DNA of 64,000 bases, from assembly GCF_048593235.1 (NCBI RefSeq), contig NC_133621.1, forward strand, positions 229,297,238 through 229,361,237, given 5' to 3'. The stretch's first letter is position 1, and each line of letters opens with the position of its first letter. The notes beneath the pieces were generated by a model that saw only the letters and a program-made list of their open reading frames with translations, ran no database searches and was not told the DNA's origin. This document shows, piece after piece, positions 5,161 to 5,965 of the stretch. The stretch comes from Sminthopsis crassicaudata. Lineage: Eukaryota. The translations under genes were made by a program, and so were the position numbers.

Positions 5161-5209
5161 AACATCTATTCAAACATTTATAAGGAAAGAAGAAAACCAA
5201 ATTACCAAT

Positions 5210-5673
5210 TGTTAGGATTACTAAGTGAGAACTCAGGTTGTCTGGACAGTGACAAGGTGAGAATTCAGGTTTTCTGGACAATTACAAGGTGAGAACTCAG
5301 GTTGACTTGATAGAGGGGGCAAGCTCATTGGCTGGGGTGGTTCTTCCCAGAAGCCCTTGCATTATCCCACGCCCATTCTCTGGGAGAATAAAAGAGACAG
5401 CACTGGGCCCAGAGAGCAGATCGGCCTGGAGAAGGATAAGAGCTGGAGGAGATTCAGAGCCAGGATTCAAGAAGAGGGTCTCTGCATTACATCAGGCCTG
5501 ATGGGGCTCTCTGCAGGAAGGGAAGTCACTTCTCTGGACAAGAGTTAACAGCAACTGCCTGGAGACAACGGTTCACTACAGGAAGAAGAATCTGTCTGAG
5601 AGATTTGAGTAGACACAGCAGATCTCTTCCCAGAGAGTGATCCGGCAGCTTCTAGAGACGACAGCTCGCTACA
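5210..5673 (+). mobile_element. 5' LTR of an endogenous retrovirus (probably ERV2/betaretrovirus-like)
   Basis: Starts TGTTAGG and ends ...GCTACA. Has a 32-bp U3 tandem repeat (~2.5 copies, 5226-5305), ATTGG near 5327 and AATAAAA near 5387. After a 2-nt spacer comes a perfect 18-nt PBS. Confidence 0.88.
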
Positions 5674-5675
5674 AT

Positions 5676-5693
5676 TGGCGCCCAACGTGGGGC
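5676..5693 (+). other. Primer-binding site for tRNA-Lys(CUU) (Lys1,2)
   Basis: TGGCGCCCAACGTGGGGC is the 18/18 complement of the 3' end of mammalian tRNA-Lys1,2. Confidence 0.93.
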
Positions 5694-5744
5694 AAGGACT
5701 TTTGCTTATCTTGACAAGAGGAGCTAGACCAGACCTTCGCAATT

Positions 5745-5760
5745 TGGCGCCCGAACAGGG
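5745..5760 (+). other. Second primer-binding site for tRNA-Lys(UUU) (Lys3), 3'-truncated
   Basis: TGGCGCCCGAACAGGG matches the first 16 nt of the Lys3 PBS (TGGCGCCCGAACAGGGAC). L1 sequence follows. Confidence 0.88.
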
Positions 5761-5761
5761 C

Positions 5762-5965
5762 GAAAATGAAAAGGGTAAACTTACTACTAATGAAGAGAAA
5801 ATTATAGCAATAATTAGGAACCATTTTGCTTAATTGTATGCCAATAAATCTGACAATCTAAGTGAAACACATAAATATTTACAAAAATATAGGTTGCCCA
5901 GGTTAACGAAAGAGAAAATAAAATACTTAAACAGCCCCATTTTAGAAAAAGAAATTGAACAAATA
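5762..5965 (+). mobile_element. L1 ORF2 internal fragment
   Basis: aaaatgaaaaggg...ttgtatgccaataaatctgacaatcta...ccattttagaaaaagaaattgaacaa matches the marsupial L1 ORF2 region just upstream of the RT domain. Confidence 0.85.

What the first reader, a model, noticed from the sequence alone, without database searches (positions are those of the whole stretch)
5674..5765. Endogenous retrovirus leader with two different tRNA-Lys primer-binding sites in tandem
Seen: an LTR ending in CA is followed by AT and a perfect Lys1,2 PBS (5676-5693). 51 nt later the context repeats: ...cgCA, then ATT, then TGGCGCCCGAACAGGG, a 16-nt Lys3 PBS (5745-5760). Known: retroviruses normally carry one PBS; Lys1,2 is used by type-D/HERV-K-like viruses and Lys3 by MMTV and HIV, and PBS-Lys is a target of KRAB zinc-finger proteins and 3' tRNA fragments. 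Inference: the parent virus may have had a dual-primer leader (primer choice or escape from PBS-directed silencing), or this is a U5-PBS recombinant of two co-packaged viruses.
Basis: partly seen in the sequence, partly recalled or inferred. Interest (0 to 1): 0.72.

Follow-up and report, generated by a model that had tools for sequence, protein, structure and literature searches.

The report
Retrovirus family using two primer sites
A young, very abundant retrovirus-like element in this marsupial-type genome carries two different tRNA primer sites in a row, and its inserted copies come with two end lengths that match the two sites, so it most likely starts copying itself from either primer, an arrangement I found described only for laboratory viruses.

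Summary
Confirmed, and family-wide. LTR-CA-AT-PBS(Lys-CTT)-48 nt-CA-ATT-PBS(Lys-TTT) is the normal leader of a young, env-less beta-like ERV family (at least 1,599 exact copies). Both sites most likely prime. Of 65 TSD-matched elements, 59 have a 3' LTR ending before PBS1. Six have a 68-69-nt longer LTR that contains PBS1 and ends before PBS2. Long ends also occur as 41 solo LTRs with 6-bp TSDs among 90 read. Long and short LTRs are unsorted on a tree. Read-through copies of tRNA-Lys-CTT sit at the first end and of tRNA-Lys-TTT at the second. Single-PBS derivatives exist but are rare. Older subfamilies show one U5-end motif before both sites, suggesting duplication. The window copy is a stub in L1 with no gag and no TSD. 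Escape from silencing is unshown. Ten paper searches found dual PBSs of this kind only in laboratory HIV; Dfam/Repbase were unavailable. The scan noted a related case (former primer sites inside LTRs, e1-9523320) in another genome.

The parts
5182..5209 (+). L1 ORF2 fragment, left flank of the insertion
   Evidence: blastn to L1 pieces in L029 and L141; L1 copies run on across the joint with 0-2 nt missing and no duplication
5210..5673 (+). Short LTR (TG...CA#1, 464 bp): the right end made when PBS1 primes (inferred)
   Evidence: solo and 3' LTRs end here with 6-bp TSDs
5210..5741 (+). Long LTR (TG...CA#2, 532 bp), holding PBS1 and the spacer: the right end made when PBS2 primes (inferred)
   Evidence: solo and 3' LTRs end here with 6-bp TSDs
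5549..5580 (+). Internal diverged copy of the U5 terminal motif (like 5643-5673); no PBS behind it
   Evidence: read from the sequence
5676..5693 (+). PBS1, 18 of 18 complementary to tRNA-Lys(CTT) (Lys1,2)
   Evidence: tRNA read-through copies at this site
5694..5741 (+). Spacer, 48 nt, ending in a second CA attachment end; shortened form of a longer spacer in older subfamilies
5745..5760 (+). PBS2, first 16 of 18 nt complementary to tRNA-Lys(TTT) (Lys3); cut here in this copy
   Evidence: tRNA read-through copies at this site
5761..5962 (+). L1 ORF2 fragment, right flank; no gag and no 3' LTR in the window

Best explanation
This is the leader of a young, env-less class II (beta-like) endogenous retrovirus family that carries two tandem primer-binding sites and most likely primes reverse transcription from either one: mostly tRNA-Lys(CTT) at PBS1, about one time in ten tRNA-Lys(TTT) at PBS2. 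The primer position sets the U5 end (established retrovirology). Priming at PBS1 gives short LTRs with spacer and PBS2 left in the leader. Priming at PBS2 copies PBS1 and the spacer into both LTRs. Each end has its own CA and is integrated with a 6-bp duplication (shown). Both provirus forms would be transcribed into the same RNA, since the RNA ends in R, so either form regenerates both and the arrangement perpetuates itself (inferred). It probably arose by duplication of a U5-end/PBS unit, with the two sites then holding different Lys tRNA sequences (inferred). The window copy is probably an aberrant one-ended insertion of a PBS2-primed plus-strand product into an L1 (inferred, about 0.6).
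For: Family: spacer 24-mer 2,651 exact hits, 1,599 followed by ATT and the start of PBS2; in 30 of 30 position-ordered hits PBS1 lies upstream. Ends: of 80 dual-PBS 5' ends, 65 had a TSD-matched 3' LTR, 59 short and 6 long (95% CI 3-19%); 12 lacked a 3' LTR or a 5' start; 3 had no TSD. In 5 of the 6 long pairs PBS1+spacer is identical in both LTRs. 230 spacer ends are followed by C or G; of 90 read, 41 are solo LTRs with a 6-bp TSD (up to 1 mismatch), 1 has a 5-bp TSD, 38 are 3' LTRs behind the polypurine tract, 1 is a 5' end, 9 unresolved. One population: 78 long and 57 short LTRs need 43 changes on the tree against 43.5 shuffled; the nearest neighbour is of the same class for 66 of 135; L114 (short) and L267 (long) are identical up to CA#1. 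Primer footprints: among the first 30 of 114 tRNA-3'-end hits, 10 are Lys-CTT copies fused at CA#1, 4 are Lys-TTT copies at CA#2 and 5 more at older spacers, 2 are Lys-CTT at CA#2, 3 are true tRNA genes, 6 belong to other elements. Of 3 copies whose site 2 reads Lys1,2 and that have a 3' LTR, 2 have the long LTR. Origin: in older L338 the same 11-nt motif precedes both sites. Youth: 46 of 67 LTR pairs differ at 0-1 positions.
Against: All evidence is from integrated DNA; no priming was assayed. The 6-of-65 share comes from one chromosome and from copies chosen for an exact spacer motif; a second small sample gave 4 of 23, and the genome-wide estimate (about 8%) is unstable. Shares among insertions mix priming with integration efficiency and later loss. 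A mismatched PBS1 variant is as frequent in short copies (24 of 58) as in long ones (32 of 76, p = 1.0), whereas 50:50 overwriting by the tRNA in PBS1-primed cycles predicts a deficit in short copies; this is unexplained. One site-2-overwritten copy has a short LTR (L372). The origin by duplication rests on an 11-nt motif in a few old copies.
Confidence: 0.9

Rival explanations
1. Two subfamilies: a Lys3-primed long-LTR lineage in which PBS1 is a fossil, and a Lys1,2-primed lineage in which PBS2 is a fossil, with no ongoing switching.
For: Both end types exist; PBS1 carries a mismatched variant in about 42% of copies; LTRs holding former primer sites were noted in another genome (e1-9523320, unchecked).
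Against: Long and short LTRs are unsorted on the tree and include an identical pair. Frequent recombination in this family weakens tree signal (one search shows little linkage even over 20 nt), but PBS2 stays near-perfect in short-LTR copies and variant PBS1 occurs in 24 of 58 short copies.
Confidence: 0.04
2. Only one site primes; the other end class is made afterwards, by internal cutting at CA#1, or by deletion, recombination or gene conversion in the genome.
For: Solo LTRs do arise by recombination, and deletions starting right behind PBS2 are seen (L094, L108, L115, L121).
Against: Long 3' LTRs sit behind the polypurine tract, end exactly at CA#2 and match the left TSD, which needs minus-strand initiation downstream of the spacer. 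Each tRNA has left read-through copies at its own site.
Confidence: 0.03
3. On why it persists (compatible with the best explanation): the second site is a passenger. The spacer is kept for packaging, dimerisation or RNA folding, or the dual form simply descends from the most active source copies, and primer choice gives no advantage.
For: PBS1 accounts for about nine in ten insertions. Single-PBS derivatives integrate normally (12 of 13 collapsed copies with a 3' LTR have a TSD). ZFP961 and ZNF417 bind both Lys sites (PMC8931336, passages).
Against: Collapse to one site recurs (20 Lys3-only hits; 31 hits of Lys1,2 joined to the leader, 15 of 20 read being collapsed) yet stays at a few per cent of 1,599 or more dual leaders, and the arrangement persists through older subfamilies with other U5 and spacer versions (2,039 hits). 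That shows retention, not its cause. The leader shows no unusual folding stability (z 0.48).
Confidence: 0.5

Closest known systems
Laboratory HIV-1 with two PBSs: Li et al. 1997 (stable dual PBS, tRNA-Gly and tRNA-His) and Voronin & Pathak 2004 (dual initiation in two-PBS vectors). Titles seen only in reference lists of PMC11181671 and PMC4227088; texts not held.
   Same: Two PBSs in tandem in one leader; initiation at both is possible, going by the titles.
   Different: Those are engineered or culture-derived viruses. Here the arrangement is natural, in thousands of germ-line copies, uses two Lys isoacceptors and yields two integrated LTR lengths.
Mouse ETn/MusD PBS variation (Cullen & Schorn 2020, PMC7472051, passages)
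   Same: Beta-like env-less ERVs with non-autonomous partners; mismatched PBS variants scattered over the tree; switching between Lys3 and Lys1,2.
   Different: One PBS per element, switched in place; no second site and no LTR length change mentioned in the passages ('two PBS' 0 occurrences).
MEBrv 3, env-less class II ERVs of Dasyuridae (Harding et al. 2024, PMC11334065; sections 7 and 10 read, term search, supplement search)
   Same: Abundant, env-less, beta-like, identical LTRs, LTR about 469 nt.
   Different: Given as about 7.3 kb, against about 6.4-6.5 kb for the longest class sampled here. The paper's main text has no occurrence of 'PBS', 'primer binding' or 'tRNA'. Sequence identity could not be tested.
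Drosophila gypsy, two tRNA-Lys,2 binding sites (PMC1635307, search listing only)
   Same: Two primer-binding sites in one natural LTR element, going by the title.
   Different: One tRNA species; recalled as a bipartite 5'/3' site rather than tandem alternative starts (not read here).

Membership tests
Class II (beta-like) ERV | Reverse transcriptase closest to betaretroviruses | tested here: met
   best PDB hit 7SR6 'Polymerase' (recalled as HERV-K RT) E 4e-71, against 6e-40 for HIV-2 RT; Pfam RVT_1. One copy, no tree.
Class II (beta-like) ERV | tRNA-Lys PBS | tested here: met
   Both sites match tRNA-Lys genes of this genome; Lys PBS typical of betaretroviruses per PMC3621094 (passages).
Class II (beta-like) ERV | TG...CA LTRs, polypurine tract, 6-bp TSD | tested here: met
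   63 of 65 TSDs are 6 bp, 2 are 5 bp; polypurine tract before 3' LTRs. The 6-bp rule is recalled.
Class II (beta-like) ERV | dUTPase domain in pro | not tested
   Not examined.
MEBrv 3 (Harding 2024) | No env ORF | tested here: met
   In 11 of 11 copies of the 6-kb class the integrase core motif lies about 1.0 kb from the 3' LTR, leaving no room for env.
MEBrv 3 (Harding 2024) | Length about 7.3 kb, LTR about 469 nt | tested here: inconclusive
   Short LTRs mostly 373-485 nt; longest class 5.9-6.1 kb from LTR start to LTR start, shorter than the published representative.
MEBrv 3 (Harding 2024) | RT clusters with the published representatives | not testable with these tools
   No sequences found in the supplement text; that search also missed the clade name, so it is uninformative. 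Not filed as a member, only as a likely relative.
Single-PBS retroviral leader (canonical) | One PBS 2-4 nt behind one U5 end | tested here: not met
   Two sites, each behind a CA end used in integration.

The most novel reading that the evidence does not exclude
A natural retroelement has kept two working primer sites under selection as a hedge. The upstream Lys1,2 site is often mismatched, which would blunt tRNA-fragment targeting, and a perfect Lys3 site downstream serves as a fallback. Each fallback cycle moves a primer site into the LTR, so the family records LTR growth by primer shift as it happens, with primer use readable from every insertion.
Probability: 0.3. Interest if true: 0.87.

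Novelty: new variant of a known kind. Interest (0 to 1): 0.72.

Why it matters
Retroviruses are taken to have one PBS and one U5 end. Here one natural family has two of each, and the choice is written into every insertion as LTR length. That gives thousands of in-vivo readouts of primer selection, cross-priming, tRNA read-through, plus-strand mis-transfer and PBS inheritance, questions otherwise studied with engineered vectors. The long class is a built-in control for PBS overwriting, and it already conflicts with simple 50:50 reversion. It shows a direct route by which LTRs lengthen and take up a PBS: an estimated several hundred long LTR ends, about half of them solo LTRs, carry a Lys PBS, a potential silencing target that ordinary solo LTRs lack. 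It also matters for repeat annotation, which assumes one LTR boundary per family.

Tried and rejected
A tRNA gene matching the variant PBS1: none with a standard T-loop (0 hits); the 4 hits are mutated PBS copies; rejected, within the limits of one assembly. Variant PBS1 as an inherited lineage mark: unsorted on the tree (22 changes against 19.1 shuffled, 57 rows) and unlinked to 8 flanking sites (96 copies); but other nearby sites are also unlinked, so this test is weak. All-variant source copies with 50% reversion: rejected by equal shares in long and short copies. Genome-wide long:short estimate: point value 7.7%, unstable at the lower bound of its input; not relied on. Leader folding: nothing unusual. 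Sequencing runs: 21 holders in 7 studies, all one organism code; no RNA holder listed, so nothing on expression or on other species. Contigs of 4 runs show the C>T of the variant at 5681 in all four but no piece spans both sites. A possible match of the spacer to the T-arm side of tRNA-Lys3 was seen by eye and not tested. Papers: searches found no natural tandem dual PBS with two LTR lengths; one search was mostly noise; PMC3185550, PMC6407205 and PMC4408412 (term searches) held nothing relevant. Most subscription papers, Repbase and Dfam could not be seen, so absence from print is not established.

Full report
Observation. The sites are complementary to tRNA-Lys(ctt) and tRNA-Lys(ttt) genes found in this genome. 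The window holds no gag and no second LTR; L1 ORF2 lies on both sides, continuous but for 0-2 nt and without a duplication. The genome has 8 contigs and 3.24 Gb, which fits a dasyurid (recalled karyotype); I did not identify it further.

The family. The 30 best genomic matches carry both sites, 28 with exact first 12 nt of each, mostly followed by a common leader and gag. The spacer 24-mer has 2,651 exact hits, 1,599 of them followed by ATT and the start of PBS2. In 30 of 30 position-ordered hits PBS1 is upstream; 22 run into PBS2 and 8 end at the second CA. The RT of one copy is closest to PDB 7SR6 (recalled as HERV-K RT). TSD-matched copies fall mainly into a 3-kb class and a 6-kb class (11 of 65) without room for env. 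46 of 67 LTR pairs differ at 0-1 positions, so the family is very young.

Test of primer use. The primer position fixes the U5 end, so the right end of 3' and solo LTRs records which site primed. I fetched entries 16-95 of the 100 places listed (all on C1). 65 of 80 had a TSD-matched 3' LTR: 59 end at CA#1 and 6 end at CA#2 with PBS1 and spacer inside both LTRs (identical in 5 of 6 pairs); 12 had no 3' LTR or no 5' start, 3 no TSD. Among 30 position-ordered U5-end hits, 19 are short ends, 4 long ends, 6 5' ends, 1 truncated. Spacer ends followed by C or G number 230. Of 90 read, 41 are solo LTRs with a 6-bp TSD, 1 with a 5-bp TSD, 38 are 3' LTRs behind the polypurine tract, 1 is a 5' end and 9 are unresolved. 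Long and short LTRs do not sort on a tree: 43 changes against 43.5 shuffled for 135 rows, four short pairs without a TSD or with badly diverged LTRs being left out.

Footprints of the primers. A search for tRNA-Lys 3' ends gave 114 hits. Of the first 30, 3 are genes; 10 are Lys-CTT copies read past 18 nt and fused at CA#1, several rejoining the spacer or PBS2 afterwards; 4 are Lys-TTT copies fused at CA#2 and 5 at older spacer versions; 2 are Lys-CTT at CA#2; 6 belong to other elements. Each tRNA is thus seen mainly at its own site, with some cross-priming. Of 4 copies whose site 2 reads Lys1,2, 2 have long 3' LTRs, 1 a short one and 1 none.

Single-site derivatives. CA#1 joined directly to a Lys3 site gave 20 hits. 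A Lys1,2 site joined directly to the leader gave 31 hits; 15 of the 20 read are collapsed (five are one segmental cluster), and of 15 collapsed copies read all carry the perfect tRNA sequence, 13 have a short 3' LTR and 12 a TSD. These fit mis-transfer through the shared first 8 nt (inferred). They remain a few per cent of the dual form; the patterns differ in match rate, so this is rough.

Origin. Older subfamilies with a longer spacer give 2,039 more exact hits. Among 30 read, both sites and TSD-flanked long solo LTRs again occur. In L338 one 11-nt motif precedes both sites, and L337 is similar. A duplicated U5-end/PBS unit, or recombination with a close relative, is the simplest origin (inferred).

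Variant PBS1. About 42% of copies carry one substitution plus one inserted base in PBS1. No tRNA gene or read-through copy matches it. It is unsorted on the tree and equally common in short (24 of 58) and long (32 of 76) copies. Mismatched PBSs scattered over trees are known from ETn/MusD and read there as escape from tRNA fragments (PMC7472051, passages). The equal shares do not fit 50:50 overwriting and stay unexplained.

The window copy. A precise left end, a right end within PBS2, no TSD and almost no target loss point to one-ended integration of a PBS2-primed plus-strand product (inferred). L153/L201 shows a similar Lys3 read-through end with a TSD a few bases away. A later deletion cannot be excluded.

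Comparison and novelty. Harding et al. 2024 describe env-less MEBrv 3 in dasyurids without any mention of a PBS; membership could not be tested, and the supplement search was uninformative. Dual PBSs appeared only as titles on laboratory HIV and on gypsy. KRAB-ZFP escape is doubtful. Ten searches found no natural case with two LTR lengths; Repbase, Dfam and most subscription papers were out of reach, so a consensus may already hold both sites unremarked. Earlier notes of this scan: e1-9523320 (former primer modules in LTRs, another genome), e1-7806816 (pointed me to ETn switching, checked), e1-9002883 (LTRs fused at primer sites; a similar joint is seen in L341). They are leads, not support.

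Verdict. Real, family-wide, and both sites most likely functional (0.9). New variant of a known kind. Interest 0.72. Why the second site is kept is open: passenger 0.5, selected hedge about 0.3.

Noticed in passing
L204, L215, L217, L222, L223: Whole or nearly whole tRNA-Lys(CTT) copies fused to LTR ends, called as tRNA genes by ARAGORN: ERV reverse transcriptase makes tRNA pseudogenes. Two Lys-CTT isodecoders appear.
   Followed up: partly
L195, L200, L205, L221, L224: Lys-TTT read-through copies stop just 3' of the anticodon, near position 37-38, where a bulky modification is recalled to block RT; Lys-CTT copies often run further.
   Followed up: no
L094, L108, L115, L121; L011, L017, L024: Internal deletions that begin right behind PBS2, suggesting mis-transfer of plus-strand strong-stop DNA.
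   Followed up: no
   Followed up: no
L324, L327, L330, L332, L334, L338: Older subfamilies carry related mismatched PBS1 forms with a 2-nt insertion, so mismatched PBS1 is long-lived.
   Followed up: partly
(e.g. L097, L117 against L093, L095): Two very different 5' gag types share the same LTRs and dual-PBS leader; the 6 long pairs all fall in the commoner type (6 of 39 against 0 of 18).
   Followed up: no
G000:C5:136.28 Mb (L187-L189); G000:C3:286.0-286.8 Mb (L360-L364); L130/L131: Tandem elements sharing LTRs, and a segmental cluster of seven single-PBS copies.
   Followed up: no
window 5549-5580 and 5643-5673; 5225-5305: The LTR holds an internal copy of its U5 terminal motif and short tandem repeats in U3; LTR length varies from about 373 to 485 nt among copies.
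   Followed up: no
window about 600-1600: GC-rich island with triplet repeats, probably a gene start, about 3.7 kb from the LTR.
   Followed up: no
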